Of a stretch of DNA of 64,000 bases, positions 5,010 to 53,056 are shown in pieces; the stretch's first letter is position 1; each line of letters begins with the position of its first letter. Origin of the DNA: an archaeon (lineage in GTDB: Archaea > Aenigmatarchaeota > Aenigmatarchaeia > GW2011-AR5); assembly GCA_028279825.1 (NCBI GenBank), contig JANQNA010000006.1, positions 2,771-66,770 on the forward strand. The letters are read 5' to 3'. The notes beneath the pieces are model-generated. The model ran no database searches, had not been told where the DNA came from, and saw only the letters and a list, made by a program, of their open reading frames with translations. A program made the translations under genes and the position numbers.

Positions 5010-5041
5010 AAGAATAAATACTGTTTGGATAATAATTAAAT

Positions 5042-5278: not shown

Positions 5279-5671
5279 ATGGAAAAAAGATTAACAGAAA
5301 TAAAAAATCTAAAGCCGGGTTCTTACGTGCTTATAGACGACGTGCCTTACAAAGTAGATAAAGTGCAAACGTCCAAGGCCGGCAAGCACGGTGCAGCCAA
5401 GGCAAGATTGTTTGCAAATGGTGTTTTTACGGATGCAAAGAAGATAATTGTCAAGCCGGGCGATACAAGAATGGATGTACCTGTTATAGAGAAGAAAACT
5501 GCGCAGATACTATCCTTCTCGGGTGACACAGCCCAGCTGATGGATATGACCAGCTATGAGACTTATGAAGTAAAGGTCCCCGAAGAACTCAAGGGCCAGC
5601 TGGTAGAAGGGGACGAAGTGGTTACCTGGGAATTCGGCACGTTCAGAATGATCAAGAACAAGAAAGTCTGA
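5279..5671 (+). CDS. aIF5A: Translation initiation factor 5A (aIF5A)
   Basis: The hypusination loop TSKAGKHGAAKAR is present. Length 130 aa. SH3-like N-domain plus OB C-domain pattern. Confidence 0.9.
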   Translation: MEKRLTEIKNLKPGSYVLIDDVPYKVDKVQTSKAGKHGAAKARLFANGVFTDAKKIIVKPGDTRMDVPVIEKKTAQILSFSGDTAQLMDMTSYETYEVKVPEELKGQLVEGDEVVTWEFGTFRMIKNKKV

Positions 5672-5720
5672 CCGAGTTCCAAAGAAAACTATTGCTGGTC
5701 GGAAAAAGAACTATTACGTC

Positions 5721-6314
5721 TTGGGGAAACTATTTTATTGGCCAGACACTAATTCTACTATGGTTAGGCGTAAGTATACAAAGAAGAACAGGGAACTTTT
5801 GGAACTCGTGAAGTTTCTTGTCAAGTTCAACCTTTTTGCGATCCCTCTTTACATCATACTTTTTACAGGCTGGACGTTTGTCCAGCTACAACAGCTAACG
5901 CTGGATATTACATATCAGATTCTACTTTTAACAGGTGCTGAACCTGTATTGAATGATTTTTTGATATCTATACCGATAAAGAACGGCAACTGGGCTGCTG
6001 TTATCAACTGGGACTGCACCGGCTGGAAGAGTATGCTGGCTTTCTTTGCACTGGTCATGTCCACTCCGTTCACGATGAAGAAAAGAGCACTTGGATTGCT
6101 GTTAATTCCCCTGATTTATGCGATAAACCTGGTCAGGATATTCTTTATGTTCCTGTATGTCAGAACATTTGACCTGGCACACTATGAATTAGTGCATTCG
6201 GTGGTGTGGAGCTGGGGGTTAATATTGACTATACTTCTGTTATGGCTGGTATGGATGAGAACAAACGGTTTCGAGTCTATGGAAAAAACAATATATAGTG
6301 CCTTACATAAGTAA
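5721..6314 (+). CDS. Short exosortase/archaeosortase-family protein (putative archaeosortase)
   Basis: Polytopic membrane protein. Cys is in INWDCTGWKS (the CxG active-site motif of exosortase/archaeosortase). AINLVRIFF matches the conserved ANxxRI motif of the family. Confidence 0.5.
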   Translation: MGKLFYWPDTNSTMVRRKYTKKNRELLELVKFLVKFNLFAIPLYIILFTGWTFVQLQQLTLDITYQILLLTGAEPVLNDFLISIPIKNGNWAAVINWDCTGWKSMLAFFALVMSTPFTMKKRALGLLLIPLIYAINLVRIFFMFLYVRTFDLAHYELVHSVVWSWGLILTILLLWLVWMRTNGFESMEKTIYSALHK

Positions 6315-13138: not shown

Positions 13139-13702
13139 ATGAGTTACTTGGATATTGAAAAGCGTTACAAACGCGGTCCGCAGATAATAACAAGAAAAGA
13201 TGCGGCTGTGATAGTTTCGGAGACAGGGCTGTGTCCGCAATGGAAATGTCTGGATCTTGGCGGAGGTTCCGGTTTTCTATCATTGTTTCTGGCAAATCTT
13301 GTGCCTAAAGGATCTGTGACTACTTATGAGAAAAAGAAGGAGCATGCGGAGATAATAAAGAATAATGTGAAGCTTTCGGGATTCAAGAACGTGAAGGTAA
13401 TCAACAAACCGGCTGAACGCTTCGCTGGTAAAGGATTTGATTTAGTAACTGCGGACATGAAAGGCACAGAGAAATTGGTTAAGAAGATACATACTGCTCT
13501 AAAACTGGGCGGATACTTTGCTGTTTATTCACCGCATATAGAACAACAGATGGCCTGCAAGAAAACAATGGAAAAAGTATTCAAAAAGATCAGGACTATT
13601 GAGACTATACAGCGTGAATGGAAAATAGACACGCGCGGCTTCACTCATCCTGTGCCGTCACAGGTTGTTCACACAGGCTACGTTACTATAGCGAGGAAGT
13701 AA
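13139..13702 (+). CDS. SAM-dependent methyltransferase, TrmI/GCD14-like (tRNA m1A methyltransferase family), short form
   Basis: GPQIITRKDAAVIV matches the TrmI tQIiYpkD motif. The SAM motif I is LDLGGGSGFLSLFLA. FDLVTADM resembles the TrmI DAVFLDLP region. Confidence 0.5.
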   Translation: MSYLDIEKRYKRGPQIITRKDAAVIVSETGLCPQWKCLDLGGGSGFLSLFLANLVPKGSVTTYEKKKEHAEIIKNNVKLSGFKNVKVINKPAERFAGKGFDLVTADMKGTEKLVKKIHTALKLGGYFAVYSPHIEQQMACKKTMEKVFKKIRTIETIQREWKIDTRGFTHPVPSQVVHTGYVTIARK

Positions 13703-13729
13703 GCTTTTTTCTTCAGAAGCTTTTTTGAA

Positions 13730-13879
13730 TGGGTCCGAGGAGATTTGAACTCCTGTCACGGGCTTTTCCGCGAACCTTTCCTTTTGATTGAACTTTTGGA
13801 AAAGTTCACCCGAAGCCCGGATCATAGCCGTTAGACGTCCGAAGGACGTCAGTCTCTGACCAAGCTAGACTACGGACCC
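13730..13879 (-). tRNA. tRNA gene of about 150 nt with one or two introns. The inferred mature anticodon is CGG (Pro), which is uncertain.
   Basis: On the minus strand the acceptor stem GGGUCCG/CGGACCC is perfect with discriminator A. The T-arm is AGGAG-UUCAAAU-CUCCU. The D-arm is GUCU...AGAC. The anticodon stem is CGGGC/GCCCG with loop UUCGGG|A interrupted by a 44-nt insert that contains an 8-bp hairpin. A second insert of about 32 nt (hairpin GACGUC-CUUCG-GACGUC) lies between the D-arm and the anticodon stem. Confidence 0.6.
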
Positions 13880-17702: not shown

Positions 17703-19376
17703 TTGCGAAAGGAAAAGAAACCGGGACTGAGAGGAGCTCTTTACAGAAAGCTTCACAACGAAAAGCCTATTCCTGTGCCCAAAACACGGGCAGGAAAGGT
17801 GCTTCAGATTATGAAGCAGAATACCGGAAGAAAGTTCTACATGTCCCAGTCAAAGTCCCTGGTTACTTTGCCCCCGTCGAGTGAAGTAAAATTCAGGAAT
17901 GTCATGTACGCTCTTATGAGGCCTTACTCCTACGCGAACATAAGATTTGACGAAAAGGACGGAACACTGGTCTATAATGTGATGGAGCCAAAGCTTGATG
18001 AAAGAGAGCAGTATGTATTGAAGAAATTACACGAAGGAATGATACAGATAATAGATGTCAGCCTGGAGGACATCAAAGAAAGCGACACTATGCTGGTGTT
18101 TCTGGAAAAGAGCATAGGAAGACTGATTGACGAGTATGATTTCAAGCTATCCGAAAAGGAATACGTAAAGGTTATGTATTACATATTCAGGGATTTTGTC
18201 GGACTGAACAAGATAGAAGCTCTTTTGAGTGATCCGTACATAGAAGATATCGGCTGTGACGGGCTTAACGTGCCTGTGTATATTGTCCACCAGAAATTCG
18301 GCTCTATGAAGACCAACATAATCTATAAAGAAGTCAAAGAGCTCAGGGATTTTGTAACTAAACTTGCCGAGAGATGCGACAGGTATATTTCTTACGCAGA
18401 ACCACTGCTGGATGGTTCACTTCACGACGGGACCAGAGTACAGGCTTCACTTGCAAGTGATGTCACAACACACGGACCAACGTTCTCAATAAGAAAGTTC
18501 CGCACGGAACCTATGTCTCCGATAGACATGATAAGACTCAATACCGCTTCACCTGAGATGCTTGCATATCTCTGGTTTCTGATAGAAAGCGGTGTTAACA
18601 TACTGATAGCCGGGGGCGTGTCTACAGGAAAAACAACTTTACTTAACGGAATATCCTTTTTCATACCGCCGGAATACAAGATCGTGTCAATAGAAGATAC
18701 AAGGGAGCTGAATCTGCCGCATGAGAACTGGATACCCGGTGTTGCGCGTATGGGCTTTACCGGCAGCGGTGTCGGCGAGGTCACCATGTATGAACTCCTG
18801 AAGGAGTCATTCAGACAAAATCCTGATTACCTTGTTGTGGGAGAAATAAGAGGTAAAGAGGCATATGTCATGTTCCAGGGCATGGCTTCCGGCCACCCTT
18901 CAATATCAACAATCCATGCAGGAGGAGTAGAGGATTTAATGAAGAGGCTGCAAACAAGGCCGATTAATCTTTCTACGGGACTAATTGAAAGTCTTGACTT
19001 GGTGCTTGTCATGGTTCATGCAAGAGAAAAAGGAAAATCATGTAGACGGGTAAAGGAGATAGTGGAAGTTGAAGGAGTGGATATATCCACAGGTGATCCC
19101 GTGACGAGTAAGTCATTTGTGTGGATACCTTCTGACGATTCGTTTGAGTACAGATCAAATTCATGGTTACTTGGAAAGGTCTCCACGCAGAGAGGAATAT
19201 CGATAAACGACATTGTAAAAGAGGTATCAAAAAGAGAGAAATATCTTCTCTGGCTTTACCAGAATAATATAACAGACATGAAAACAATCGCGAAATACAT
19301 CTCACTTTACTACAGAAATCCCGAAAGAGCAGCAAAACTACTTGCAGGTGAAAGAATAAGGGAAGATGAAATATGA
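17703..19376 (+). CDS. flaI: FlaI/ArlI-like type IV filament assembly ATPase (GspE/VirB11 superfamily)
   Basis: Walker A ILIAGGVSTGKTTLLN, Asp/His boxes and a VirB11-type C-domain are present. 557 aa, typical of FlaI. Confidence 0.85.
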   Translation: MRKEKKPGLRGALYRKLHNEKPIPVPKTRAGKVLQIMKQNTGRKFYMSQSKSLVTLPPSSEVKFRNVMYALMRPYSYANIRFDEKDGTLVYNVMEPKLDEREQYVLKKLHEGMIQIIDVSLEDIKESDTMLVFLEKSIGRLIDEYDFKLSEKEYVKVMYYIFRDFVGLNKIEALLSDPYIEDIGCDGLNVPVYIVHQKFGSMKTNIIYKEVKELRDFVTKLAERCDRYISYAEPLLDGSLHDGTRVQASLASDVTTHGPTFSIRKFRTEPMSPIDMIRLNTASPEMLAYLWFLIESGVNILIAGGVSTGKTTLLNGISFFIPPEYKIVSIEDTRELNLPHENWIPGVARMGFTGSGVGEVTMYELLKESFRQNPDYLVVGEIRGKEAYVMFQGMASGHPSISTIHAGGVEDLMKRLQTRPINLSTGLIESLDLVLVMVHAREKGKSCRRVKEIVEVEGVDISTGDPVTSKSFVWIPSDDSFEYRSNSWLLGKVSTQRGISINDIVKEVSKREKYLLWLYQNNITDMKTIAKYISLYYRNPERAAKLLAGERIREDEI

Positions 19377-20035
19377 AGAAGATTCCATCAGGCATACACG
19401 GTCTCGACAAAATACTCGGCGGCGGGATACCTGATCGCGGTGTCATGCTCTTGAGCGGCAACTGCGGCGCAGGGAAAACTATTTTCAGCCTGCAATTTTT
19501 GATGTCGGATGACCCTGGCGTATACGTGAGCTTTGAGGAGGAACTTGATGAGATAAGGGAAACCTCAAAACTATACGGATGGGACCTGGAGAAACTGGAA
19601 AAAGAAAACAAGATAAGAATGCTTAAATACGATCCTTTCAGACTGGAGGATATCCTGGAAGTTGTGGAAAATAACATAAGGGAAATAAAGGCCAAGCGTG
19701 TTGTATTTGATTCTGTCGCTGCTTTGGGGGTTCACATGAAGGAGCCATCAGAACTGAGAAGAATGATTCTTCAGATAAACAACATAATGAAAAAGAACAA
19801 GTGTACCACTATTATTGTTTCGGAGATACTTCCCGGAAGCAAGGCCCTTTCAAGATTTGGCGTTGAGGAGTTTGTGTCGGATGGTGTTATTGTTCTTGAG
19901 AATGTCGAAAAAAGAGGAGAATTCAAGCGGGCGCTGGCTGTACGCAAGCTTCGCGGGGTGAATCATTCAAGGGCTATACACACTTATAACATATCCAACA
20001 AGGGCATCAGCGTAAGCCAGTCTACGTTCAGATAA
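19373..20035 (+). CDS. flaH: FlaH/ArlH-like KaiC/RecA-family ATP-binding protein
   Basis: IHGLDKILGGGIPDRGVMLLSGNCGAGKTIFSLQF carries the KaiC-like Walker A. 220 aa. Coupled to flaI by an ATGA overlap. Confidence 0.7.
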   Translation: MKKIPSGIHGLDKILGGGIPDRGVMLLSGNCGAGKTIFSLQFLMSDDPGVYVSFEEELDEIRETSKLYGWDLEKLEKENKIRMLKYDPFRLEDILEVVENNIREIKAKRVVFDSVAALGVHMKEPSELRRMILQINNIMKKNKCTTIIVSEILPGSKALSRFGVEEFVSDGVIVLENVEKRGEFKRALAVRKLRGVNHSRAIHTYNISNKGISVSQSTFR

Positions 20036-20046
20036 GAGTTGTTCTT

Positions 20047-20913
20047 ATGTACAAGGACTTAATAAAAGTTTTAGGAAATTTTGGTACGCGACGTTTTGCT
20101 AGTAACCTGGCTCCTTTGAAAGAGGAAATAACCAAGTCCAACCTGAGTATACTGTTTGAGATGTACGTTGGCCGCATGATACTTCTTTCTATCGTTGCTT
20201 TCTTTGTCACTATGGGCTTCATATTTTCTATGTTTCTATTCCTGGGGGGCGGTTTTCTTCTGGCACTGATGGCAGGTCTTATCACCGGTGTTGCGGCATC
20301 TTTTGGCATACTTACTGTTTATCATTCCTATCCGTTCCAGCTTCTGACCTCAAAGAAAAAAAGTATTGAGGCGAATCTGCCTTTCGCCATAAATCATATG
20401 GGAGCAATAGCCGCCAGCGGTGTCCCGCCTTTTGTTACATTCAAACTTATGTCCGGTATACCCGAATACGGGGAAATAGCCAATGAATCCAAGCGTATTG
20501 TGAGGAATGTTGATACGTTTGGTATGGACGTTGTTTCTGCAATGAGGAACGTGGCAGACAGATCTCCGTCACAGGATTTCAGGAGACTGATATACGGTGT
20601 TGTGTCTACCATAGAGACAGGTGGAGATCTGAAAATTTATTTAGAGAACGCGGCGAAAGAAGCACTCTTTGAGTACAGACTAAAGAGAGAAAAGTACATG
20701 CAGACTTTGTCCACATATGCAGACTTTTATACGGCCGTGCTTATAGCCGCCCCGCTGTTCTTTGTGTCCGTACTCTCAGTCATGTCCCTGGTCGGCGGAG
20801 AGGTATTCGGACTAAGTATTCCGGTTGCAATGAGATTAGGCGTATACGCCATGATACCTCTCATGAATACAATGTTTCTGATGTTCATCCACTTTACCCA
20901 GCCAACGGTGTAA
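20047..20913 (+). CDS. FlaJ/TadC-like membrane platform protein (first T2SSF-domain half)
   Basis: Polytopic membrane protein. The cytoplasmic domain carries the T2SSF-like motif LPFAINHMGAIAASGVPPFVTF. Confidence 0.65.
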   Translation: MYKDLIKVLGNFGTRRFASNLAPLKEEITKSNLSILFEMYVGRMILLSIVAFFVTMGFIFSMFLFLGGGFLLALMAGLITGVAASFGILTVYHSYPFQLLTSKKKSIEANLPFAINHMGAIAASGVPPFVTFKLMSGIPEYGEIANESKRIVRNVDTFGMDVVSAMRNVADRSPSQDFRRLIYGVVSTIETGGDLKIYLENAAKEALFEYRLKREKYMQTLSTYADFYTAVLIAAPLFFVSVLSVMSLVGGEVFGLSIPVAMRLGVYAMIPLMNTMFLMFIHFTQPTV

Positions 20914-20916
20914 TAA

Positions 20917-21720
20917 ATGAAAAACGAACTTGATTTCAAACTGGCGAGCCTGATAGCTGTAATCATGGGAATGTTTTTACTCGGATTAAACTTCATGCTG
21001 TTTTCGCCTGATGACCAGATTTTCGCTATAATGAACCTCACGGTCGGTATAATAATTGTCGGCGTTCCGCTGGTAATCAAGTATACCGAATACCGGAAAA
21101 TAAGAAAGATAGAGGAGATGTTTCCGAGGTATCTTAGTGATATTGCCGAAAACATAAGTGCCGGGATGACCCTGCCCCAGGCAATGAGGTCCGTCGGCAA
21201 CATAGACTACGGTATACTTACAAAATACATAAGGGATATTTCCTCAAAGATATCCTGGGGCGTGCCTTTCGAGGAAGTTATGAAGGATTTTGCAAAGAAG
21301 ACCAAGAGTAAACTGATGAGCAGAAACGTACAGACCATAATTGAAACACACAGATCCGGCGGATCTATGGATACGGTTCTCAGGTCAGTGGCACAGTCAT
21401 TAGTGGAACTGGAAAAAATCAAAAAAGAGCGTTCCGCTTCCGTATACTCCCAAATGATTAACGGTTATGTAATATATGTCGTGTTTCTTGGTGTTATGGT
21501 CGGGCTTTCGGCTATTCTTGTCCCGGCTTTCCAGCTTGAAGAAGCGACTGATGGTTTACAGGAGGCTTTTGCCGAGATATTTGCAGCTTTGATTATCATA
21601 CAAGGTTTCTTTGCGGGTATGTCCATTGGTAAGATGTCCGAGGGTACTTTCATTGCAGGCGTCAAGCACGCTATGGTTTTGGTCATAGTTGGTTACACGG
21701 TCTTTGTTTTGTTTGGCTGA
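20917..21720 (+). CDS. FlaJ/TadB-like membrane platform protein (second T2SSF-domain half)
   Basis: The T2SSF-like motif AENISAGMTLPQAMRSVGN is flanked by TM helices. It starts 4 nt after the previous ORF, so the two together equal one FlaJ. Confidence 0.65.
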   Translation: MKNELDFKLASLIAVIMGMFLLGLNFMLFSPDDQIFAIMNLTVGIIIVGVPLVIKYTEYRKIRKIEEMFPRYLSDIAENISAGMTLPQAMRSVGNIDYGILTKYIRDISSKISWGVPFEEVMKDFAKKTKSKLMSRNVQTIIETHRSGGSMDTVLRSVAQSLVELEKIKKERSASVYSQMINGYVIYVVFLGVMVGLSAILVPAFQLEEATDGLQEAFAEIFAALIIIQGFFAGMSIGKMSEGTFIAGVKHAMVLVIVGYTVFVLFG

Positions 21721-21726
21721 CCGACA

Positions 21727-21770
21727 TTTTTCTTGAAAGAAAAATCTAGGTATCCCAAAAAGAACTATTA
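21727..21770. promoter_or_regulatory. Conserved 44-bp intergenic motif, copy 1: T-tract plus imperfect palindrome, then CTAGGTATCCCAAAAAGAAC
   Basis: tttttcttgaaagaaaaatctaggtatcccaaaaagaactatta is nearly identical to 52954-52999. It lies between the FlaJ-like stop and the next gene. Confidence 0.5.
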
Positions 21771-21790
21771 GTAACTTATATATACCGCCT

Positions 21791-21829
21791 AATGATAATC
21801 ATTAATAGTAATCATCAATGATTATCATT
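21791..21829. promoter_or_regulatory. Inverted repeat AATGATAATCATT-N13-AATGATTATCATT immediately upstream of the 21844 start (candidate operator)
   Basis: The two 13-bp arms are exact reverse complements. Each arm is itself nearly palindromic. The site ends 15 bp before the ATG. Confidence 0.45.
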
Positions 21830-21843
21830 GAACTGGTAGTAAC

Positions 21844-26000: not shown

Positions 26001-26186
26001 ATGTCATTGAAAGAGAGAGTTTTATCTGCTATAGGCAAGGAGGCCACGCCTATCTACGTTGTGGCTAAAAAAGCCGGTACTTGCGTCACTACGACGTCAA
26101 AATACTGTTATATTCTTCAGGCTGAACACAAAATTGTCATGACCAGTTTTGGTAATATGAAGTTAGTCAGGAGGAAGGGCAAATGA
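26001..26186 (+). CDS. Small (61 aa) putative winged-helix protein translationally coupled to the giant gene
   Basis: MSLKERVLSAIGKEATPIYVVAKKAGTCVTTTSKYCYIL...MKLVRRKGK. Its size and layout resemble the 59-aa HTH at 23465. Its stop overlaps the start of the 3614-aa gene. Confidence 0.35.
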   Translation: MSLKERVLSAIGKEATPIYVVAKKAGTCVTTTSKYCYILQAEHKIVMTSFGNMKLVRRKGK

Positions 26187-29100
26187 CAAGATTCCTACCA
26201 GCAATCTTGATTGCTAGTTTATTGCTACTTATCACACCTCCTGTATTTGCAGTGCCTAACATAATAGATTTCCAAGGACGGTTGTTAGATAACAACAGGA
26301 ACCCGCAAGGCGGACAGTTCAACATGACGTTTTCTATTTTTAACGAGTCGACGTCCGGTTCTCTTCTATGGCAGGAAAACAAGCTCGTAAACGTCTCAAA
26401 TGGTTTGTTCACAGTGTTGCTTGGCGACACCATCGGGTTAAACCTAACGTTCAATGAGGACTATTATGTTGAGGTTATTGCAAACGGGGAAACATTTGCG
26501 CCACGCTATCGCGTGTCCACAGTTCCTTACGCTTACAGGTCACAGTACGCTTCAGCTGATAATACAAGTGAACCGTCTTTCATCTTTGAAAGATTCAGGA
26601 ACCAGACCAGTAATCTTACAGAATGGCAGAACGAGACGGGATTTACAATGGCATCTGTTGACAAATACGGCAGGTTTGTAGGCGACGGATCACTGTTGAC
26701 GGGCATAATTGCCGCTATCAATGATTCAACGACGGATCTGCCCGCTACAAACATAACACCCGGAACGTTTGGTATTCATTACCAGAACGGAAGCTATGCT
26801 TTTCCTGTTAACCTGAATGTTACACACAATCTGACGCTAGGCAATACAACCAATACGCTGAATATATACCGTGATGATGTTGGTAATTTTGTATTCTTCC
26901 CCAACAACAAGTCTGTTATTTTTCCCGGCAGATATGCTTCAGGCTTGCCTGCACTGAGTGCTGTAGCAATAGGTGCCAATGCAAGTGTTGCTACGACCCA
27001 TTCAATTGCTATTGGTACCGGTGCCACAGTCAGTAACGTTCTTCCGAGCTGTATAGTCATAGGAAGCGGTGCCGTTTGTACTGAGAACTACCAACTACTT
27101 TTGGGAGGTCCTGACACCTATATCAGAGAGGCATATATTGGCGGCGGGCCAACACGATTGAATCCTAATACAGTTACATTGCAAACTTCGGGTGGTATAG
27201 GCGGTTCCAACTATGGTGGTACTATTGTGCTGGCAGGCGGTAAAGCAACCGGAACAGGTGTGCCTGGTAGTGTTGTGTTCAAAGTATCGAACGGTACGGC
27301 ACCTTCTTCAACTTTGCAGGACCTGGTGGAAGTCGGCCGGTTCAACGGCTCAACAAGGTACTTTGGTATTGGCACGGCTGCAACTATAGCGCGTCTACAT
27401 GTTGCAGGTACAGAAAACCTGAATAATCTTTCTTTGAACGTTAATGATACTTTGTATGTGAACGGTTCAAGAGTCGGCATAATGACACCAAACCCTACGC
27501 ATGAACTGCATGTTGTTGGTGACGTGAATGTCACGGGAACAACATATCTGAGCACACTTTCAGTTACAAATCTAGACATACCAAACAACCTGTCCGTGGG
27601 TCGTAACTTCTCTGTCGGACCAAATACATTGTTTGTAGATCATTCAACAGCAAGAGTCGGTATTGGCACGGCTACGCCTGCAGAGGAACTGCATGTTATA
27701 GGTGACATTAATGTTACAGGTAATTATGCTCCTATAAATGTGGATGTAGTAAGAAGTGCTGTTAGTGCCGGTACATATCTGGACTTTGGATCCAATGTCA
27801 TTGACGTTTACGCGTCTGGTGGACTACAGATAAATACTGGAAATATCGAGTTCTATTCTGGTACTCGCGTACCTTTATCAATAACACCTGGAAGTGCTGA
27901 TGGTGTTCCATCAACCATATCAAGTGGTTACGATCAAACAGGCTGGTATCATCCATTACACTATAGATCTGGTGTTCTGGACGGTGCAACAGCCATAGCA
28001 CACATAATTAACACTACAGGCAATCTAACTACAGAAGGTGCAAAATTGGTTTCCGTACAAAATAACGGTACGGAGAAGTTCTTCATAGACAAAGACGGGG
28101 ATACATGGTTCAATGGATACCTAAACGTTACGGGTGACGTCAACACGACAGGTAATGTTTGTTTATCAGATGGAACGTGTTTGAGTGATTTAGGAGCGGC
28201 GGCCGGCGGCTGGACGGATGACGGAGATGTTGTGAGACTGACGACAGTGGCCGACATGGTTGGTATCGGCACGACGAATCCTTTGGCTAAATTGAACATA
28301 CAAGGTGTAAATGATACAACAGGATTGTCTTTGAATGTTAACAATACTTTGTATGTTAACGGAACGAATGTCGGTATCGGAACTGGTAATCCACAGAGAC
28401 CTATACATGCTACTGAAAATGTTGATGGTACTACAGGAGCTTGGTTTTTGAATCCTAGTACAGGAACGTCTGCATTGTCTGCAGTTCTTGTGGGAGATTC
28501 TACTGCTGGTGGCAATTATGGATATTTGGGTCACTTTGGAGAAAATTATGCAGATGCCGGGTTAATTGTTGCCAATCGTACAATATTGGTTGGATCAGAT
28601 ACTGCAGGACTTGTAATAGTCTCAAATGCAGCTTCGATGATCTTTGCAACTGGTGGCACTGCTGCATCAAATGAAAGAATGAGAATAACAGCAAATGGGG
28701 ATATAGGTATTGGAACAACAAATCCTTCAGATAAGCTTCACGTAAACGGGTTTATACAGACGGAAGTTGTAGATTGGACTCTAAAGAAAGAGTTTACCGG
28801 TGCCAATGATACTGTCAGAGATCTGGAAGTGTACAATGGTAAACTGTATGCCGGTATGGGTACAGATTTAGAAGAGGGAGATTTGTTTGTGTTTAACGGC
28901 ACGGACTGGGCGCTTGAGTATGATTTTGGCGGTGATTATGCAAGGGTTGAAGCAATGGAAGTCTACGAAAACAAACTTTACGTGGGTCTTGGAAACGATT
29001 CACTTACGCAGGGTGGATTAGCTGATATTTATTTCTATAATGGCACGCACTGGGTTTTGTCTACGGATTTAGGTGCTGAATATGAAAGCGTGTGGTCGCT

Positions 29101-32100
29101 GCAGGTTTATAATGGAAAACTTTATGCAGGTACAGGAACCACAGACGGTGACGGTGACATCTGGGAGTTTGACGGATCAACCTGGTCACTTTCATACAAC
29201 CTTACAGGTTATCAATACGCCTATCCTATGGCTACATACAATGGTAAGTTGTATGTTGGAATGGGCTATGGTGCGGATGATGGTGATGTCTACTCGTTTG
29301 ACGGATCAACCTGGTCACTTGCTTATGACTTTGGAGCTCAATATGAGACAATCTATTCTCTGGGCGTGCATGACGGCAAACTGTATGCCGGTACTGGTTA
29401 CAGCGGCGGTGACGCAGCGATATATGTGTACGATGGGTCTTCCTGGAAATTGTCCCAGTCACTTTCTCCGTATAATGGGGTATACTCTCTAAGGAGTTAC
29501 AACGGAAGAATGTATGCCGGTCTTGGACAGGACGCAGGTGAGGGTGACGTATACGTCCTGATAGACGGCAACTGGACACAAGCTGCTGATCTTGGTGCAG
29601 CATATGAACAGGCATGGGATATGGAAGTTTACAATGGAAAGCTTTATGTTGGAACAGGCAGTGGTGCCGACGATGCTGATATTTTTGCTTACTCAGAGCG
29701 TTTAGAGTCCCAATTAACGGAGGATCTTGGCGAAAGATTTGAAAAGTTTGTGACAACTTCACAACACTTTACTGATAATGTGTCTATACTGGGCATCCTG
29801 AATGTTACAGGTAACACCTACCTGAGTAATCTTACGATAGAGGGCATTGCCATGGCAAATGGCGACATGACTGTGTCCGGCAATCTTTCTGTGTTGAAGA
29901 ATTTTTCTGTCGGTCCTAACAACCTGTTTGTTGATAATTCAACAGGAAGGGTTGGCATAGGAACCGCTACACCGTCTTCTGCTTTGGAGGTTTCAGGCAA
30001 TATAACGATTACACAAGACGCATTTTTCATTGGCAATCGTGCACAGGCAACAGGACAGGATTCAATAGCAATAGGAAACATTGTCAATGCAACTGGTTTG
30101 CAATCGATAGCAATTGGAAAAGGTGCCAATTCAAGCAATGACAGAACAATAGCAATTGGAGTAAATTCAAAAGCTGCCGGACAACGGGCATTAGCAATAG
30201 GCTGGAATAGTGAAGTATCCGGTGATTATGGTACTGCTCTGGGAACTGATTCATTTGTCAATACTGATGGCACAGCAATTGGTCTTGGATCACAGGCTAC
30301 GAGTGGTAGCGGAGTTGCAGTTGGAAGATCAACGTATGCCGGTAATTCTGCTACTGCACTTGGAAGAGCAGCCAACGCAAGCGGTAGTTATTCTGTGGCT
30401 ATTGGTTACACTGCAAATACAACTACGGATGCTTCTGAGTCTATAGCCATAGGCCTGAAATCAATGGCCGATGCTTCATATGCTGTGGTTGTGGGTTCCA
30501 GGGCAAATGCAACCTCGAATAATGCTATTGCAATTGGTTACAAATCTAACTCTAGCAATACAGATACAATTGCTATAGGTGAAAATGCAAGGTCGACAGG
30601 CGTACAGTCTATAGCTATAGGCAGTGATGCACAAGCGACAGATACCGGGGCAATTTCTATAGGTGATGATACTGAAACAAGTGGTGACGGAAGTATAGCA
30701 ATAGGTGATAACGCATGGACTAACACAAATATTGCCGATGCGATAGCAATAGGAAGAAATTCAAACGTATCAACCAGATTTGCAATCGCTATAGGCGGTG
30801 GGTCATACGCAGGTCCACAAGCTTCAATAGCTTTGGGTTACGGTGCCTCTGCCTCGGTAATAAATTCAGTTGCCGTTGGAGAAGGTGCATTAGCTACGGG
30901 ATCCGCAAGCAGTGGAACTGCCATAGGAACCGATTCGATTGTTACCGGTGCATCTTCATTTGCAGCCGGTGCCAGTGCACAGGCAGGTACACGCGGAATA
31001 GCAATAGGAAATTTGGCAAACGCTTCGAGTAGCACTAACATGATTGCTATCGGATACATGTCAAAAACTAACCAACCAGATGCGATTGCATTTGGTCATT
31101 TGGCAAATGCATTTAATGACAGAGCAATAGCAATAGGAATGACGGCAAATGCAACCAATTCTGATGTAATTGCAATAGGTTCATATACAAATGCAAGTGG
31201 TCAGGATTCGATAAGTATTGGTCAGGATGCACAGGCAAGTAATACCGACGCAATGGCAATGGGCAGACAAGCACATGCAAATGATACCGATTCAATTGCA
31301 TTGGGTAGAGGTGCAGTTGTGTATGAAGCACAGGCCATAGCAATAGGAACAAGTGCTTTTGTTGATGACTGGGGAACAGGCGAGGGAGGTCTTGCCATTG
31401 GTTACAATGCAAGAGATTACGGTGGCGGCGGCGTTGCGATAGGTCATGATGCATTTATTGGTGAAACAGATTCACAGTCAATTGCAATAGGTAAATCTTC
31501 TAATGCAACCGGGTTGTACTCTCTGGCTATCGGCGCTAGTTCACTTTCGACAAATCAGCTATCTGTTGCTGTTGGATATAACTCTTTGACTCATGGTAAC
31601 AGCGCGACTGCCTATGGTGATTCTGCTTCAGCTGCAGCAGAAGGATTTGCAGCTGGTGCCTCTGCAGATGCTTTTGGTGGTCAAAGCGTTGCAGTGGGAC
31701 GATCTTCTAACTCCTCAGGTCAATTTTCCACTGCTGTTGGATATCAGGCAAGAGCATGGAATAGCAGAGGAATAACAATAGGGCAGGGTGCTAATTCGTA
31801 CGGAGACTCTGGTATTGCAATAGGTAATGTGGCCAATTCAACTAACGGATATTCGATAGCAATCGGAAGAGATTCTGAGGCACTGGCAGAGAGTGCAATA
31901 GCAATCGGGGGTGGTTCTGGCAACGGAGCAAGGGCAACTGATTTGGATGCAATTGCTATGGGACGAAACAGTGAGGCATCACAGGACAACGCAATTGCTA
32001 TAGGTGAGAATGCTAATGCAAGTGATCAGGACACAATAGCTATAGGCCAATATGCAAGGGCATCACAGGCAAATGCAATTGCTATAGGCGAGAATGCCAA

Positions 32101-35100
32101 TGCCACTACAAATGCAGTGGCAATAGGATTTGATGCAATAGCTACTGATCTTGGTGCGATATCCATAGGCGACGATGCTTATACAACCGGTGACGGTAGC
32201 ATAGCAATAGGTGACGGTGCCTGGACTGAAACGGGTATTGCCGATGCGATAGCCATAGGCGACGGTTCAAATGTATCTACAAGGTTTGGTATTTCAATTG
32301 GCAGCGGGTCATTAGCAGTTGCACAAGCTTCAATAGCATTGGGATATACCGCCGAGGCGGAGAACACTAATACTATTGTTATAGGGAACGGCGCAGCCGC
32401 GAGGGGAACGTCTACAAGCGGTATTGCAGTTGGTATTGATTCGTTAGTTACTGGTGCAAGTGGAATTGCAATGGGAGATCGTTCAAATGCCGGTCGCTAT
32501 GCGGTGGCTATAGGACTATTGGCTAACTCTACCGGTGCAAACAGCGCAATTGCGGTAGGATATAGCTCAAAGGCTGATGATCCGGATGCAGTGGCAATCG
32601 GACACAATTCAAATGCACTACAAGACAGAGCAATAGCAATAGGAATGACAGCCAATGCAACCGCTGGTGATTCAATAGCAATTGGCTCTTATACAAATGC
32701 CACGAATTCCGGTTCCGTGGCCCTTGGCCGTGATGCCCAGACCACAGCAGACAACCAGTTAGTAATTGGCAGCCCAAGCTATAATTTGAATACATTGATA
32801 CATGGTTCATTGAACGTCACGGGTGATGTGAATGTTACTAGTGATTATGATTTTTGTATTGACGGCGGTAATTGTCTTAGCAATTTTGCTGACGCTGGAA
32901 ATGTAACAAGCAATGGCTCAGCTGGCTACATACCTGTGTTCACGAACGCTACCAATATCGGCAACAGTATAATGACTGAAGTTCAGGGTGCTATATCGAT
33001 AGACGGCAACCTGAGCATGCCTGGTGCATTCTATATCGGGAACGGTGCGGCTGCCATAGGTAGTGATGCACTGGCTGTCGGTAATAGTGCAACATCTGAA
33101 AATACTTCTACAATAGCAATTGGCGAACTTGCAAACGCGAGCGGTTTGTATTCTACAGCTATAGGCTACAATGCAAGAGCTACACAGAGTGCTGCATTGG
33201 CAATAGGTTCGCCTTATCCATCCGGACAAACCAGAGCCACAGGTACTTATGCAATAGCGATAGGAAACGCACCCGAGGCCCCTGACACCAGTTCAATTGC
33301 TATAGGTACCAGCGCAAACGCAACTGGTACTTACACTGTTGCGATAGGACATAGTGCACAAACGATGGGAGGCAGTCTTGACAGGGCTGTTGCGATTGGG
33401 TATGATACATACGCAGAAGGTTCTGGTGCACTGGCACTTGGATATGAGGCAAGATCAAATGTTGGATATGGGATTGCAATGGGTATGCGTAGTGTTGCAA
33501 ATGGTGCAGGAACCGCAATTGGCTGGAATGCTGATGCTGGTGGAGCTTCATCTGTAGCACTTGGTGGATATGTCCCTAATGCAAGTGCAAATGATGCTAT
33601 AGCAATAGGCTCTTATGTTAATGCAAGCGCTGTTGATACAATTGCAATGGGTCATTTTGCAAGGGCAACACAAACCAATGCAATTGCAATTGGTGAGGAA
33701 GCAAATGCAGCTGGTACTCAGGATATTGCAATTGGTTATCAGGCTGAGAGTCTGGCTAATTATGGTGTTTCAATAGGTTACAATGCTTCTGTGGCTAATA
33801 GCGGTGTTGCTTATGGTACCAGTGCTACGGCTGCCGGCGCCAGTGACACAGGCCTTGGAAGAGCGACAATGGCTGCCGGTGGTAATTCTGTTGCTGTAGG
33901 CTTCCAGGCACAGTCAATTGGAGGAAATTCCGTATCTATTGGCTACAACGCTGACGCAAATGGAACTGATTCAATAATGTTGGGCAGAAGTGCAAGTGCA
34001 ACAGGTGATTATGCTGTTGGAATGGGTGCGATTGCAACTGCAACTTCTGATTATGGCATAGCCTTGGGATATGATGCAAATTCAAGCGGTCTGGATGCAA
34101 TAGCCATAGGTCAAGGTACTGTGGCGTTCCTGGGAAATGCAATAGCCATAGGCAAGGATGCCAATGCAAACAATTCAAATGCTCTTGCGATTATGGTTGA
34201 TGCTGACGCGACTGCTGCTGATACAATTGCTATAGGTCAAAATTCAAAGTCATTAGATAGCTATTCTATATCAATAGGAAATAATGCTAAATCTTTGAAC
34301 CAGAACTCAATAACGATGGGACGTAATGCATTTTCAAGTGGCGGCTCTTCATTGTCAATAGGCAATGCTGCTAATGCCTCTGGTGGATATGGTATTGCAA
34401 TTGGAACGCTTGCAAATGCTTCTCATGATGATAGCGTATGTATTGGATTTAACTGCCAGACAACAGCAAACAATCAATTCATGGTTGGGGCTGGCACGGA
34501 CCCATTGAGTTTGAACGTGACAGGTGATATAAATGTAACGGCCGGTTATGATGTTTGCATTGATGGAGGAAGCTGTTTGAGCACGGGCGGCGGCAGTGGA
34601 AACACAAGCGGTACCGGAGCAGCTGGTTACATACCTCAATGGCAGGACCATGACACTTTGAATAATTCAATCATGTTCCAGGAAGGAACTTACATAGGCA
34701 TAAACACCACAACTCCTGGGTCACCATTGCATGTTGTCCAGGAGGGATTGGACGACATACTTACAATAGGTGCTTACGTAAACACGTATACATGGAACAA
34801 TCTTGTCTTCGAAAGGAGTGGAACCAGTTATGCTTCACCTTCCCAGGTATCCAACGGGGCTAACCTGGCGAGAATTCTATTCAAAGGTTATGACGGTTCG
34901 AGCTATGACAATGCTGCTGCTATTTATGTGCAGGTTGATGGTGCTACAAGTACCAACGACATGCCTGGAAAGTTTGTGTTCTATACTTCAAGGGACGGAA
35001 CAAACTCGATACAACCCAGGATGGTGCTTGATAATATGGGAAGACTTGGTCTGGGTAATGTTAGTGAATATGCTACAAACTTCGACTCCAACTTCACCGC

Positions 35101-38832: not shown

Positions 38833-38836
38833 TAGT

Positions 38837-41854: not shown

Positions 41855-41855
41855 T

Positions 41856-52553: not shown

Positions 52554-52946
52554 ATGAAAGGATACATATACACGATAGAAGTTTTGCTGGCACTTTCATT
52601 AGTGTTAGTAATGATTGTTTTCATATTCAGCAGTACACCTGAGCAGCCTGAAACAAGTTTAGTGGTGATAAAGCAGACCGGTTATGATGCGTTGCATTAT
52701 CTGGATCAGACAGGTATGCTAAGAGATGCTGTTAGCAGAGAAGCCTATGGTGAGATAGCAGCAAACGTGACGGAAATGATGCCAAACAGCATCAAGTCAG
52801 ATGTTGCTATATGTACTGCTACGTTCTGTGAATCGTTTAAGATACCGGTTAACAGAACCATTGTTGCTGTCGATTATTATGTGTCCGGATATGAACAACA
52901 GTATCTTGAAAAGAAAGTGAGGTTATGGTTATGGCCAAGGTTCTAG
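52554..52946 (+). CDS. Pilin-like protein (130 aa) with class III-type N-terminus
   Basis: MKGYIYTIEVLLALSLVLVMIVFIF has KG then a hydrophobic helix with Glu at +6, resembling type IV pilins. It starts 1 nt after the previous stop. Confidence 0.45.
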   Translation: MKGYIYTIEVLLALSLVLVMIVFIFSSTPEQPETSLVVIKQTGYDALHYLDQTGMLRDAVSREAYGEIAANVTEMMPNSIKSDVAICTATFCESFKIPVNRTIVAVDYYVSGYEQQYLEKKVRLWLWPRF

Positions 52947-52953
52947 ACCGATC

Positions 52954-52999
52954 TTTTTCTTCAGAAGAAAAAGCTAGGTATCCCAAAAAGAACTTATTA
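52954..52999. promoter_or_regulatory. Conserved 44-bp intergenic motif, copy 2 (see 21727-21770). It is followed by the CTTAAGGG-flanked palindrome at 53014-53054.
   Basis: tttttcttcagaagaaaaagctaggtatcccaaaaagaacttatta. It is followed by cttaagggttttctttttcctaaaaagaaaaagcttaaggg. Confidence 0.5.
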
Positions 53000-53056
53000 T
53001 TTTTCTTTTACCTTAAGGGTTTTCTTTTTCCTAAAAAGAAAAAGCTTAAGGGTCAG

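What the first reader, a model, noticed from the sequence alone, without database searches (positions are those of the whole stretch)
21727..21770. A 44-bp element conserved almost base-for-base at two intergenic sites 31 kb apart
tttttcttgaaagaaaaatctaggtatcccaaaaagaactatta at 21727-21770 and tttttcttcagaagaaaaagctaggtatcccaaaaagaacttatta at 52954-52999 differ at only about 4 positions. Each starts with a T-tract/imperfect palindrome (TTTTTCTT...AAGAAAAA) directly after an upstream stop codon, followed by the invariant CTAGGTATCCCAAAAAGAAC. Both copies precede genes for N-terminally membrane-anchored extracytoplasmic proteins (21844 and 53057). Conservation this high in AT-rich non-coding DNA implies function: a shared terminator plus promoter/operator for a dedicated regulator, or a miniature mobile/insertion footprint.
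Basis: seen in the sequence. Interest (0 to 1): 0.6.

Follow-up and report, generated by a model that had tools for sequence, protein, structure and literature searches.

The report
Tiny mobile hairpin element at gene ends
The two near-identical 50-base stretches are copies of a small, previously undescribed insertion element of Aenigmarchaeota (tiny DPANN archaea) that sits exactly at gene ends and is almost base-identical in distantly related genomes, so it has spread rather than being a local regulatory site.

Summary
The repeat is a 51-53 nt unit that starts at the stop codon: 21720-21770 and 52947-52999. The two copies are 89% identical and share an exact 20-mer.

The window comes from an Aenigmarchaeota genome and covers a type IV pilus locus. 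The same unit, 94-96% identical, lies at unrelated places in two other genera whose orthologous coding DNA is only 53-64% identical. One copy sits between vapB and vapC. Another sits beside a tRNA-Ala gene.

Longer relatives keep both ends but carry extra hairpins inside. Orthologous sites are filled in some relatives and empty in others. Three copies are flanked by exact 9-15 nt direct repeats of the target. There are no terminal inverted repeats.

Most copies lie in sense orientation 0-2 nt after a stop codon. They carry a T5/A5 hairpin followed by a tail that resembles an archaeal BRE/TATA promoter.

Best reading: a non-autonomous mobile element. A terminator or insulator role with a weak outward promoter is likely but inferred. 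The operator-for-a-regulator idea is not supported. What mobilises the element is unknown. Leads are a resemblance to a tRNA intron and adjacency to TnpB transposon ends.

The parts
21720..21770 (+). Copy 1 of the element (short form). Blocks: ACCGACA 21720-21726; hairpin ATTTTTCT-TGAA-AGAAAAAT 21726-21745; CTAGGTATCCC 21746-21756; AAAAAGAAC 21757-21765; TATTA 21766-21770. Its first base is the A of the TGA stop of the TadC/FlaJ-like gene 20917-21720.
   Evidence: An orthologous copy sits after the same stop codon in the closest relative, L079. The element is absent after the same conserved C-terminus in L081, L083 and L085.
52947..52999 (+). Copy 2 of the element (short form). Blocks: ACCGATC 52947-52953; hairpin CTTTTTCTT-CAG-AAGAAAAAG 52953-52973; CTAGGTATCCC 52974-52984; AAAAAGAAC 52985-52993; TTATTA 52994-52999. 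It starts directly after the TAG stop (52944-52946) of the pilin-like gene 52554-52946, inside an otherwise gap-free gene cluster.
   Evidence: The same site carries long-form relatives in archaeon GW2011_AR5 (L089) and in L091. It is empty in L094 and L097.
53000..53053 (-). A related hairpin unit in inverted orientation, tail-to-tail with copy 2. On the + strand: T-rich TTTTTCTTTT 53000-53009, then a long hairpin CTTAAGGGTTTTCTTTTT-CCT-AAAAAGAAAAAGCTTAAG (53012-53050) made of arms 53012-53029 and 53033-53050. It ends 3 nt before the ATG at 53057. Only the distal AAGGGTCAG ATG corresponds to the native leader seen at empty sites.
   Evidence: nhmmer with a 12-member profile gives E = 6e-6 on the minus strand, but this stretch was itself one of the 12 sequences the profile was built from, so the E-value is circular and is not independent support. 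Fold. Empty-site comparison. Inverted units in the same position in AR5 and L091.
5669..5716 (+). Probable degenerate relative after the eIF5A-like gene: TGA|CCGAG at the stop (5669-5675), no T/A hairpin, then two tail modules. The second tail is an exact 14-mer, AAAAAGAACTATTA (5703-5716), shared with copy 1. A third tail-like module, GGGGAAACTATTTTATT (about 5723-5740), has its TATA-like stretch about 30 nt upstream of the ATG near 5761, the usual promoter spacing in this genome.
   Evidence: The 14-mer with up to 1 mismatch occurs 3 times against 0.05 expected; 0 of 100 shuffles reach 3.
20917..21720 (+). Context: TadC/FlaJ-like T2SSF membrane gene, last gene of the pilus assembly operon (ATPase 17703-19376, KaiC-like 19373-20035, T2SSF 20047-20913). 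Its native stop abuts copy 1.
52554..52946 (+). Context: 130-aa pilin-like gene whose native stop abuts copy 2. The C-terminus ...VRLW(L/M)W..F* is conserved in relatives with and without the element.

Best explanation
The two sequences are copies of a small (about 52 bp), non-coding, non-autonomous insertion element specific to Aenigmarchaeota.

Anatomy: 5'-ACCGAYC, then an 8-9 bp hairpin with a U-rich arm and an A-rich arm, then CTAGGTAT(C)CC, then AAAAAGAAC, then (T)TATTA-3'. Longer family members keep both ends and carry one or two extra hairpins, either in the hairpin loop or after CTAG.

Shown here: the element is dispersed within and between genomes. It is far more conserved than the surrounding genes. 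It is present or absent at orthologous sites. Its youngest-looking copies are flanked by 9-15 bp duplications of the target. It almost always lies with its ACCGA end 0-2 nt from a gene boundary, usually in sense orientation directly after a stop codon.

Inferred: once inserted, it acts as a transcript-end module. The T5 run and hairpin immediately after the stop would serve as an archaeal oligo-T terminator or insulator working in both directions. The AAGAAC-TTATTA tail resembles this genome's BRE/TATA boxes and could restart transcription outward. That combination would explain why insertions inside operons are tolerated.

Unknown: the enzyme that moves it. It has no terminal inverted repeats.
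For: 1. Real repeat. An exact 20-mer occurs twice against 0.02 expected.

2. Dispersal. The full unit is in archaeon GW2011_AR5 between an AbrB/VapB-like gene and a PIN gene. It is also in MAG SMAG_U8162 next to tRNA-Ala. Identity to copy 2 is 94% and 96%. Orthologous coding DNA between the window and AR5 is 53-58% identical. TadC is 64% identical to L085 and 73% to L079.

3. Non-orthologous copies are more alike than orthologous ones. AR5's copy at the site orthologous to copy 2 is a divergent long form.

4. Filled versus empty sites.
- After TadC: filled in the window and L079, diverged in L080, empty in L081, L083 and L085.
- After the pilin-like gene: filled in the window, AR5 and L091, empty in L094 and L097.
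- LamG-gene junction: a related hairpin-plus-tail unit without the ACCGAYC and CTAGGTAT blocks fills it in AR5 only; the window has TAAATG and L091 has TAATTATG.
- S26e/T2SSE junction: filled in L085, empty in the window.

5. Flanking direct repeats that abut the element. TGTGGTAAAC, 10/10. AAAGGGCTGTTAGAT, 15 exact (19/20 with one indel); this is the 5' end of tRNA-Ala, so the tRNA is regenerated. CAGTCCATT, 9/9. Shuffle p is 0.0025, 0 and 0.0065. The 10-nt case flanks the related LamG-junction unit; the other two flank core-family copies.

6. Long forms with the same ends occur in SMAG (two copies of the same long form) and in L085.

7. The hairpin is kept in all 12 units compared.

8. The unit is rare, not generic intergenic architecture. 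About 4 units were found in about 84 kb of the source genome.

9. The anatomy fits a terminator and promoter role. A T5 run follows the stop on the sense strand, and there are two T5 runs on the other strand. Five copies lie between convergent genes. The genome's promoters have a TATA about 31 nt before the ATG, preceded by A-rich ..AAC or ..ATC, similar to the tail.
Against: - Only 3 of 13 copies show clear target duplications, and one of those is a related unit rather than a core-family copy. Copies 1 and 2 themselves show none.
- There are no terminal inverted repeats and no conserved target motif. No candidate transposase is linked to the element. The only transposase gene near the window is an unrelated DDE type whose ends do not resemble it.
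- The hairpin shows almost no covariation.
- Terminator and promoter activity are untested, and some contexts argue against them. The tail's TATA is only 19-20 nt from the vapC ATG in AR5. In SMAG, a long copy sits between a good promoter and the tRNA-Ala body, so transcription must read through it.
- The strict placement 0-2 nt after stop codons is not explained by any known transposition mechanism.
- Only about 250 kb of Aenigmarchaeota DNA could be examined. The exact 18-20-mer was found in only two other genomes in the large collections.
Confidence: 0.6

Rival explanations
1. A vertically inherited cis-regulatory module: a terminator plus a promoter or operator read by a dedicated DNA- or RNA-binding factor, conserved by purifying selection at each site.
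For: - Sense orientation, starting at the stop codon, in most loci.
- The orthologous pair copy 1 / L079 is 89% identical while the adjacent TadC DNA is 73% identical.
- T5 run plus hairpin, and a BRE/TATA-like tail.
- Tandem tail modules in L079 and at 5669-5740, the last placed correctly for the downstream gene.
Against: - Near-identical copies sit in unrelated contexts in other genera. Orthologous copies (copy 2 versus AR5 site 2) are less alike than non-orthologous ones.
- Downstream partners are unrelated, convergent or absent.
- The TATA box of the gene at 21844 (and part of its upstream region) is conserved in L081, and the TATA plus palindromic operators in L085, neither of which has the hairpin element there.
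- Insertions carry target duplications.
Confidence: 0.13
2. An RNA-level mobile element related to archaeal tRNA introns. The unit would be copied through an RNA intermediate and pasted at transcript or ORF ends, in a retroposition-like or reverse-splicing-like way. This would explain the strand bias, the lack of inverted repeats, the variable target duplications and the A-rich 3' part.
For: - The 37/38 intron of a tRNA-Pro(CGG) in L085 is 34/40 identical to the diverged copy of the unit in the source genome (L088), with 0 of 2000 shuffles as good.
- A long copy sits inside the tRNA-Ala transcription unit.
- Introns of one family occupy different positions in different tRNAs: the window tRNA-Pro 37/38 intron versus the SMAG tRNA-Ala D-loop intron. 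This recalls the tRNA intron transposition reported in Thermoproteales, whose mechanism is unknown (PMC4090602).
- Target duplications of 9, 10 and 15 nt, with 4-9 variable bases after TATTA.
Against: - I could draw no bulge-helix-bulge motif at the boundaries of copies 1 and 2. The predicted fold is a 3x3 internal loop, not opposed 3-nt bulges.
- No reverse transcriptase was seen in any locus.
- The intron similarity is between low-complexity T/A hairpins and involves the more diverged subtype.
- The 3' end is not a homopolymer.
Confidence: 0.14
3. A derivative of, or preferred target for, IS200/IS605-family (TnpB-bearing) transposons, comparable to palindrome-associated transposable elements or to REP sequences.
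For: - In L094 a unit sits right after a pilin gene stop. It is followed, 9 nt after its TATTA, by a two-hairpin Y-shaped module. That module is the region just downstream of a TnpB gene (7493-8617, minus strand), where the right end and omega-RNA scaffold are expected.
- The same Y module lies 6-9 nt from the tail in SMAG and in L091.
- The element has a subterminal hairpin and no terminal inverted repeats, as in this transposon family.
Against: - IS200/IS605 transposition leaves no target duplication and needs a conserved 4-5 nt target next to the left end. The bases preceding ACCGA are not conserved, and duplications are present.
- No TnpA or TnpB lies in the ~84 kb of the source genome examined.
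- The short copies have no Y module.
Confidence: 0.1
4. attL/attR-type direct repeats bounding a 31-kb integrated island that carries the giant surface proteins.
For: Two direct repeats in the same orientation 31 kb apart, enclosing adhesin-like genes.
Against: - Genes just inside both boundaries are syntenic with the pilus locus in relatives: the wHTH-TM gene after TadC in L081 and L085, and the LamG and pilin-like genes before copy 2 in AR5, L091 and L094.
- No integrase lies between the repeats.
- Single copies occur elsewhere in unrelated contexts.
- GC content is uniform across the region.
Confidence: 0.03

Closest known systems
Bacterial REP/BIME (repetitive extragenic palindromes) and similar small repeats (ERIC, BOX, RUP)
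   Same: Short imperfect palindrome in extragenic DNA directly after genes, including inside operons and between convergent genes. Many near-identical copies with an orientation bias. Known side effects on termination and mRNA stability (my own knowledge).
   Different: This element is archaeal (DPANN). No RAYT-type transposase was seen. It has a 25-nt conserved non-palindromic tail and a conserved 7-nt head instead of the 5' GTAG of REPs. Target duplications are present in some copies. Density is low, about 1 per 20-30 kb.
MITEs, especially Neisseria Correia elements and archaeal MITEs (Sulfolobus SM1-4, haloarchaeal MITEs)
   Same: Small, non-coding and non-autonomous. Shows insertion polymorphism and target-site duplications. 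Variable internal sequence between conserved ends. Correia elements also carry terminator and promoter activities (my own knowledge).
   Different: No terminal inverted repeats. At 52 bp it is shorter than MITEs I know of. Duplication length varies (9-15 bp). No parent IS with matching ends was found. Placement at stop codons is unusually precise.
IS200/IS605-family ends and their derivatives (PATEs), and TnpB omega-RNA regions
   Same: Hairpin-based ends without inverted repeats. Physical adjacency of the unit to a TnpB right-end-like two-hairpin module in three loci.
   Different: Target duplications are present. No conserved target tetranucleotide next to the head. The short copies lack any TnpB-related sequence.
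Archaeal tRNA introns that have moved between positions (Thermoproteales 'intron transposition', Fujishima et al. 2010, as summarised in PMC4090602)
   Same: One tRNA-Pro intron resembles the unit. Related introns occupy different tRNAs and positions in these genomes. The mechanism of spread is unknown in both cases.
   Different: Copies 1 and 2 lie in intergenic DNA without a recognisable bulge-helix-bulge motif. Flanking duplications are not a feature of intron transposition.
Archaeal intrinsic (oligo-T) terminators
   Same: A run of at least 5 T on the non-template strand immediately downstream of the stop codon, on both strands of the hairpin (my own knowledge of Thermococcus and Methanothermobacter terminators).
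   Different: Ordinary terminators are not conserved base-for-base over 50 nt across genera, and they do not carry CTAGGTATCCC or ACCGATC blocks.

Membership tests
MITE (miniature inverted-repeat transposable element) | Small, non-coding, multiple dispersed copies | tested here: met
   51-53 bp short form and about 107-115 bp long forms. Stop codons interrupt copy 1 in frame. At least 9 core copies at 8 loci in at least 4 genomes.
MITE (miniature inverted-repeat transposable element) | Terminal inverted repeats matching a parent IS | tested here: not met
   The ends ACCGATC... and ...CTTATTA are not inverted copies of each other. The only inverted similarity is the internal T-run/A-run. The ends of the DDE transposase genes in L089 do not resemble the unit.
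MITE (miniature inverted-repeat transposable element) | Target-site duplication of fixed length | tested here: inconclusive
   Exact flanking repeats of 10, 15 and 9 nt at 3 of 13 copies (p <= 0.0065), plus one imperfect 14/18 repeat. None at copies 1 and 2. The length is variable.
MITE (miniature inverted-repeat transposable element) | Presence/absence polymorphism at orthologous sites | tested here: met
   Four junctions compared, each filled in some relatives and empty in others.
REP / RAYT system | Imperfect palindrome in extragenic position | tested here: met
   positions.
REP / RAYT system | Conserved 5' GTAG tetranucleotide and an associated RAYT (Y1 transposase) gene flanked by REPs | tested here: not met
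   The head is ACCGAYC. No Y1 transposase lies in the source-genome loci. The one locus with a recorded Y1_Tnp hit (L094) actually encodes a TnpB on the other strand.
IS200/IS605-derived element | Subterminal hairpins, no inverted repeats | tested here: met
   The hairpin starts 7 nt from the 5' end.
IS200/IS605-derived element | Insertion 3' of a conserved 4-5 nt target, without target duplication | tested here: not met
   The bases before ACCGA are G, G, C, G, T, T, T, T, G with no shared 4-mer. Duplications are present at three copies.
Archaeal BHB (bulge-helix-bulge) intron | Two 3-nt bulges on opposite strands separated by a 4-bp helix at the element boundaries | tested here: not met
   Predicted folds of copies 1 and 2 give ACC/GGU plus a symmetric 3x3 internal loop plus the hairpin. 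I could draw no BHB with the flanks. By hand, a relaxed BHB can be drawn for the window's tRNA-Pro intron.
Archaeal intrinsic terminator | Run of at least 5 T on the non-template strand shortly after the gene end | tested here: met
   ATTTTTC at 21726-21732 and CTTTTTC at 52953-52959. The opposite strand has two T5 runs.
Archaeal intrinsic terminator | RNA 3' ends map to the T run | not testable with these tools
   No transcript data are available.
Archaeal promoter (BRE/TATA) | A/T-rich 8-bp box preceded by a purine-rich BRE, about 26 nt upstream of a transcription start (about 31 nt before the ATG of leaderless genes in this genome) | tested here: inconclusive
   AAGAAC-TTATTA resembles local promoters such as CGACAAAC-TATATATA. 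Spacing to the next ATG is 63 nt for copy 2, 79 nt for copy 1 (which has a better TATA further on) and 19-20 nt in AR5 vapC. Several copies face convergent genes.
Integron attC site | Inverse core RYYYAAC at the start and core GTTRRRY at the end of an imperfect palindrome following a cassette ORF | tested here: not met
   Neither motif is present on either strand of the unit (read).
Integrative-element att sites (attL/attR) | Direct repeats bounding a foreign segment with an integrase, usually at a tRNA gene | tested here: not met
   The genes inside both boundaries are syntenic in relatives. There is no integrase and no tRNA at either site.

The most novel reading that the evidence does not exclude
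The unit may belong to a so far unknown kind of archaeal mobile element. It would be tiny, lack inverted repeats, generate duplications and be strand-specific. It would home to ORF and tRNA ends, within 0-2 nt of stop codons. It would be evolutionarily continuous with tRNA introns. Together these features would point to RNA-mediated (retroposition-like or ligase/endonuclease-mediated) spread between DPANN genomes, and would give a concrete handle on the unexplained phenomenon of archaeal tRNA intron transposition.
Probability: 0.15. Interest if true: 0.85.

Novelty: new variant of a known kind. Interest (0 to 1): 0.55.

Why it matters
DPANN archaea have very small, compact genomes and are not known for dispersed repeat families. 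A full-text search for Aenigmarchaeota together with MITE returned nothing relevant.

This 52-bp element is better conserved across genera than the proteins around it, and it lands exactly at gene ends, inside operons and in a tRNA transcription unit. Three consequences follow:
- It marks gene flow between these episymbiotic archaea.
- It probably rewires transcription boundaries, by terminating and restarting, in genomes with almost no intergenic space.
- Its lack of inverted repeats, its variable target duplications and its resemblance to a tRNA intron raise the question of an unrecognised mobilisation mechanism.

Practically, such elements can break assemblies and mislead gene callers. Two public annotations read an ORF straight through the element.

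Tried and rejected
- Rfam. Gathering threshold on the window, and E-value mode on the loci holding short and long copies. Only SRP RNA, tRNA and SSU rRNA were found, and nothing at the element.
- Collection scans. The exact 20-mer and degenerate patterns in IMG/VR gave nothing or one chance hit inside a coding region. The 18-mer in metagenomes gave 75 hits. All but the AR5 and SMAG contigs were chance matches or matches inside bacterial coding sequence, including L075, which first looked like a tandem copy but lies inside an Lgt-like gene. Plasmid and phage collections gave no match.
- A 31-kb island bounded by att sites: rejected on synteny.
- Integron attC: core motifs absent.
- K-turn, C/D box and H/ACA: motifs absent by eye.
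- BHB intron at copies 1 and 2: no motif could be drawn.
- Small ORF: copy 1 has an in-frame stop, so the long ORF through copy 2 (52925-53656) is an artefact.
- The tail as the promoter of the gene at 21844: rejected. That gene has its own TATA at about 21774-21785, conserved in relatives without the hairpin element.
- Generic intergenic architecture: rejected. A 12-member profile finds only four units in about 84 kb of the source genome.
- Covariation in the hairpin: uninformative, because the stems are T/A runs.
- TnpB relatives in viral contigs: too distant, and no unit-like sequence lies downstream.
- DDE transposase ends in AR5: no resemblance.
- I could not fetch more genomic DNA.
Full report
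**1. The observation**

Both stretches are present as described. The 20-mer CTAGGTATCCCAAAAAGAAC occurs exactly twice in the window, at 21746-21765 and 52974-52993. No further match appears even with 3 mismatches. Shuffles expect 0.02 matches.

Aligning the two sites shows that similarity starts at the stop codon of the upstream gene and ends at (T)TATTA. The flanks are unrelated. The unit is therefore 21720-21770 and 52947-52999, 47/53 identical.

Its anatomy is:
- ACCGAYM head.
- An 8-9 bp hairpin with a T-rich 5' arm and an A-rich 3' arm. The loops differ, and the closing pair is A-T in copy 1 and C-G in copy 2.
- CTAGGTATCCC.
- AAAAAGAAC.
- (T)TATTA.

**2. Where the window comes from**

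The window carries an archaeal SRP RNA (57014-57285) and an intron-containing tRNA (13730-13879, minus strand). It also carries a type IV pilus locus: a T2SSE ATPase, a KaiC-like ATPase, two T2SSF genes, many pilins with class III signal peptides, and giant surface proteins.

Homologues of the T2SSF gene that abuts copy 1 are named Candidatus Aenigmarchaeota. The exact protein lies on a 107-kb contig assembled from SRR20820740.

**3. The same unit elsewhere**

A scan of one genome per species found the exact 20-mer in two other archaea. In both, the whole unit is present with unrelated flanks.
- In GW2011_AR5 it sits between the stop of an AbrB/VapB-like gene and a PIN gene, 13 nt before the PIN ATG.
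- In MAG SMAG_U8162 it sits 2 nt after a fragment of the tRNA-Ala 3' end.

The metagenome scan returned only these same two contigs plus chance or coding matches.

Identity to copy 2 is 94% (AR5) and 96% (SMAG). Orthologous coding DNA between the window and AR5 is 53-58% identical. TadC DNA is 64% identical to L085 and 73% to the closest relative, L079.

**4. A family with conserved ends**

Profile searches of the roughly 250 kb of Aenigmarchaeota DNA I could fetch found more members.

Members with the same conserved blocks:
- Two copies of the same long form in SMAG. They have the same head and tail, and two extra hairpins replace the loop.
- A long form in L085, in antisense orientation 1-2 nt from the T2SSE start codon.
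- A long form in AR5 at the site orthologous to copy 2. It starts directly after the TAG stop and has a two-hairpin domain inserted after CTAG.

More diverged hairpin-plus-tail units:
- A relative at the same site in L091.
- A copy in the source genome between ftsZ and a convergent gene (L088).
- A unit after a pilin gene stop in L094.
- An AR5-specific unit at the LamG-gene junction.

In the window itself there are two further relatives. One is an inverted related hairpin unit at 53000-53053, tail-to-tail with copy 2. Its profile E-value is not independent, because that stretch was part of the profile. The other is a degenerate relative after the eIF5A-like gene, with TGA|CCGA and the exact 14-mer AAAAAGAACTATTA at 5703-5716.

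The unit is not generic. A 12-member profile finds only four units in about 84 kb of the source genome.

**5. Evidence that it is an insertion**

(a) Orthologous junctions are filled in some relatives and empty in others.
- After TadC, whose C-terminus is conserved: filled in the window and L079, diverged in L080, empty in L081, L083 and L085.
- After the pilin-like gene: filled in the window, AR5 and L091. It is empty in L094, which has the stop, 17 nt including AAGGGCCAG, then the ATG. L097 carries a different insert.
- LamG-gene junction: a related unit fills it in AR5 only. The window has TAAATG and L091 has TAATTATG.
- S26e/T2SSE junction: empty in the window, filled in L085.

(b) Three copies are flanked by exact direct repeats that abut the element.
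- TGTGGTAAAC (10 nt) at the AR5 LamG junction. A single copy at this junction would give the compact stop-to-start spacing seen at the empty junctions of the window and L091.
- AAAGGGCTGTTAGAT (15 nt; 19/20 with one indel) around the SMAG long copy. This repeat is the leader plus bases 1-12 of tRNA-Ala, so an intact tRNA is regenerated downstream. A good TATA box sits 26 nt upstream of the first repeat.
- CAGTCCATT (9 nt) around the SMAG short copy.

(c) Orthologous copies (copy 2 versus AR5 site 2) are less alike than non-orthologous copies in different genera. That pattern is expected from spread or replacement, not from site-specific conservation.

No terminal inverted repeats and no conserved target motif exist. 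Copies 1 and 2 have no recognisable duplication.

**6. Position and orientation**

Nine loci have the head 0-2 nt after a stop codon in sense orientation:
- TadC.
- The pilin-like gene.
- AR5 vapB.
- A SMAG membrane gene.
- eIF5A.
- The AR5 LamG gene.
- The L094 pilin gene.
- L091.
- L080.

One further copy starts 2 nt after a tRNA 3' end. In three loci an inverted unit has its head 1-3 nt from a start codon: L085, the window at 53053, and AR5.

Native C-termini are unchanged whether or not the element is present. The element therefore does not supply the stop codon. This precision is not explained by compactness alone, because several of the intergenic spaces are 17-80 nt long.

**7. What it may do**

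The sense strand offers a T5 run immediately after the stop. The other strand offers two T5 runs. Five copies lie between convergent genes. This is what an archaeal oligo-T terminator working in both directions would look like (inference from established knowledge of archaeal intrinsic termination).

Promoters in this genome have a TATA about 31 nt before the ATG, preceded by A-rich ..AAC or ..ATC. The tail AAGAAC-TTATTA resembles them. At 5723-5740 a tail-like module is in exactly the right place for the downstream gene.

Spacing to the next ATG is wrong in several copies, and some copies face convergent genes. The promoter role is therefore at best occasional. A unit that both stops and restarts transcription would be tolerated inside operons, where copy 2, the AR5 vapBC copy and the AR5 LamG copy sit.

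The gene at 21844 does not depend on the element. Its TATA (about 21774-21785) and two palindromic operators (21790-21804 and 21815-21831) lie downstream of it. Related upstream sequence recurs in relatives without the element there: the TATA region in L081, and the TATA plus operators in L085.

**8. Leads on the mechanism of spread**

(i) tRNA introns. The 37/38 intron of tRNA-Pro(CGG) in L085 is 34/40 identical to the L088 copy, and 0 of 2000 shuffles score as well. The window's tRNA-Pro 37/38 intron is homologous to a D-loop intron of the SMAG tRNA-Ala. This recalls the intron transposition described in Thermoproteales, whose mechanism is unknown (PMC4090602). No BHB motif can be drawn at copies 1 and 2.

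(ii) TnpB. In L094 the unit is followed by a two-hairpin module lying just downstream of a TnpB gene. The same module sits 6-9 nt from the tail in SMAG and L091. However, IS200/IS605 transposition makes no duplications and needs a fixed target.

(iii) The tRNA-Ala 5' fragment repeat is formally similar to the direct repeat of a tRNA 5' end created by an integrating element in Caldiarchaeum (PMC3293823). Here the insert is only 107 nt.

**9. Verdict**

The best-supported reading is a small non-autonomous insertion element of Aenigmarchaeota, with a likely but untested terminator/insulator and weak-promoter side function. The "operator for a dedicated regulator" alternative is not.

The element does not meet the defining features of MITEs (no inverted repeats), REPs (no GTAG, no RAYT), IS200/IS605 ends (duplications present, no fixed target), BHB introns or attC sites. 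I therefore rate it a new variant of a known kind, the small dispersed intergenic repeats.

The main limits are the small amount of lineage DNA I could inspect and the absence of transcript or population data.

Noticed in passing
window 21773-21835: The gene at 21844 encodes an N-terminal winged-helix domain, then a membrane anchor, then an extracellular part. It has its own TATA (CTTATATATACC), followed by two near-perfect palindromes: TAATGATAATCATTA (21790-21804) and TCAATGATTATCATTGA (21815-21831). Similar ATCAATGAT/ATCATTAATGAT boxes precede the orthologue in L085 (10780-11270) and partly in L081. They look like operator sites, possibly for autoregulation by the membrane-anchored HTH protein.
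   Followed up: partly
window 13730-13879 (minus strand); L001 4659-4777; L085 1770-1650 (minus strand): The window's tRNA-Pro(CGG) carries two introns, one in the D-loop and one at 37/38. Its 37/38 intron is clearly homologous to a D-loop intron of tRNA-Ala(UGC) in MAG SMAG_U8162. The same intron family therefore sits at different positions in different tRNAs. This is the pattern called intron transposition in Thermoproteales, seen here in a DPANN lineage. ARAGORN and Rfam mis-place or miss these genes.
   Followed up: partly
L001 4770-5380: A doc/Fic toxin gene (4795-5226) lies between tRNA-Ala and a duplicated tRNA 3' end (CCCACAGTCCA). It also has 23-nt direct repeats, TTTGACCARTGGTT.A.AT.GACC, near both ends. 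This looks like a small cassette integrated at the tRNA 3' end. No integrase is on the 11.5-kb contig.
   Followed up: partly
L094 7336-7420; L001 375-300 (minus strand); L091 9833-9905; internal domains of L089 9913-9965 and L091 9750-9808: A recurrent Y-shaped two-hairpin module of the form CAAG-hairpin-CTGYRCAG-hairpin-CTTG. The hairpin sequences differ completely between copies but stay perfectly paired. In L094 it lies just downstream of a TnpB gene (7493-8617, minus strand), where the transposon right end and omega-RNA scaffold are expected. Elsewhere it occurs alone, or nested inside the element studied here.
   Followed up: partly
L079 992-1078: In the closest relative, the copy after TadC is followed by two more tandem copies of the 3' module at a spacing of about 30 nt: TAGGTATCATCAAAAAGAACTATTATTTT / GAGGTATCACAAAGAAAACATATTATCTTT / TAGGTCCCAAAGAAACTAT. 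The contig ends there. The tail module can evidently multiply on its own.
   Followed up: no
window 52925-53656; protein P0127 of GW2011_AR5: Public gene calls extend the pilin-like gene that really starts at 53057 upstream through the element (241-243 aa instead of 199). The AR5 orthologue is likewise called at 249 aa. These are annotation artefacts caused by the open frame across the insert.
   Followed up: yes
L081 434-3445: The pilus ATPase (T2SSE) of this relative is 1003 aa and carries an intein with a LAGLIDADG homing endonuclease, according to precomputed Pfam hits. The window's orthologue (17703-19376, 557 aa) has none. In the same relative a vapBC pair is inserted right after the TadC stop, the position occupied by copy 1 in the window.
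   Followed up: no
window 26183-45096: A 3614-aa protein with YadA-head-like 14-residue repeats (42-nt periodicity), followed by several large proteins with repeats of about 45 residues (135-138-nt periodicity). These form a very large adhesin-like block inside the pilus locus of a small-genome archaeon. The Logan assembly of the same sample breaks inside it.
   Followed up: no
window 13700-13729: After the stop of the methyltransferase gene (13139-13702) comes GCTTTTTTCTTCAGAAGCTTTTTTG. It shares CTTCAGAAG and the T runs with the hairpin of copy 2 and abuts the 3' end of the convergent tRNA-Pro. This is an ordinary-looking terminator of the same style, but without the conserved head and tail.
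   Followed up: no
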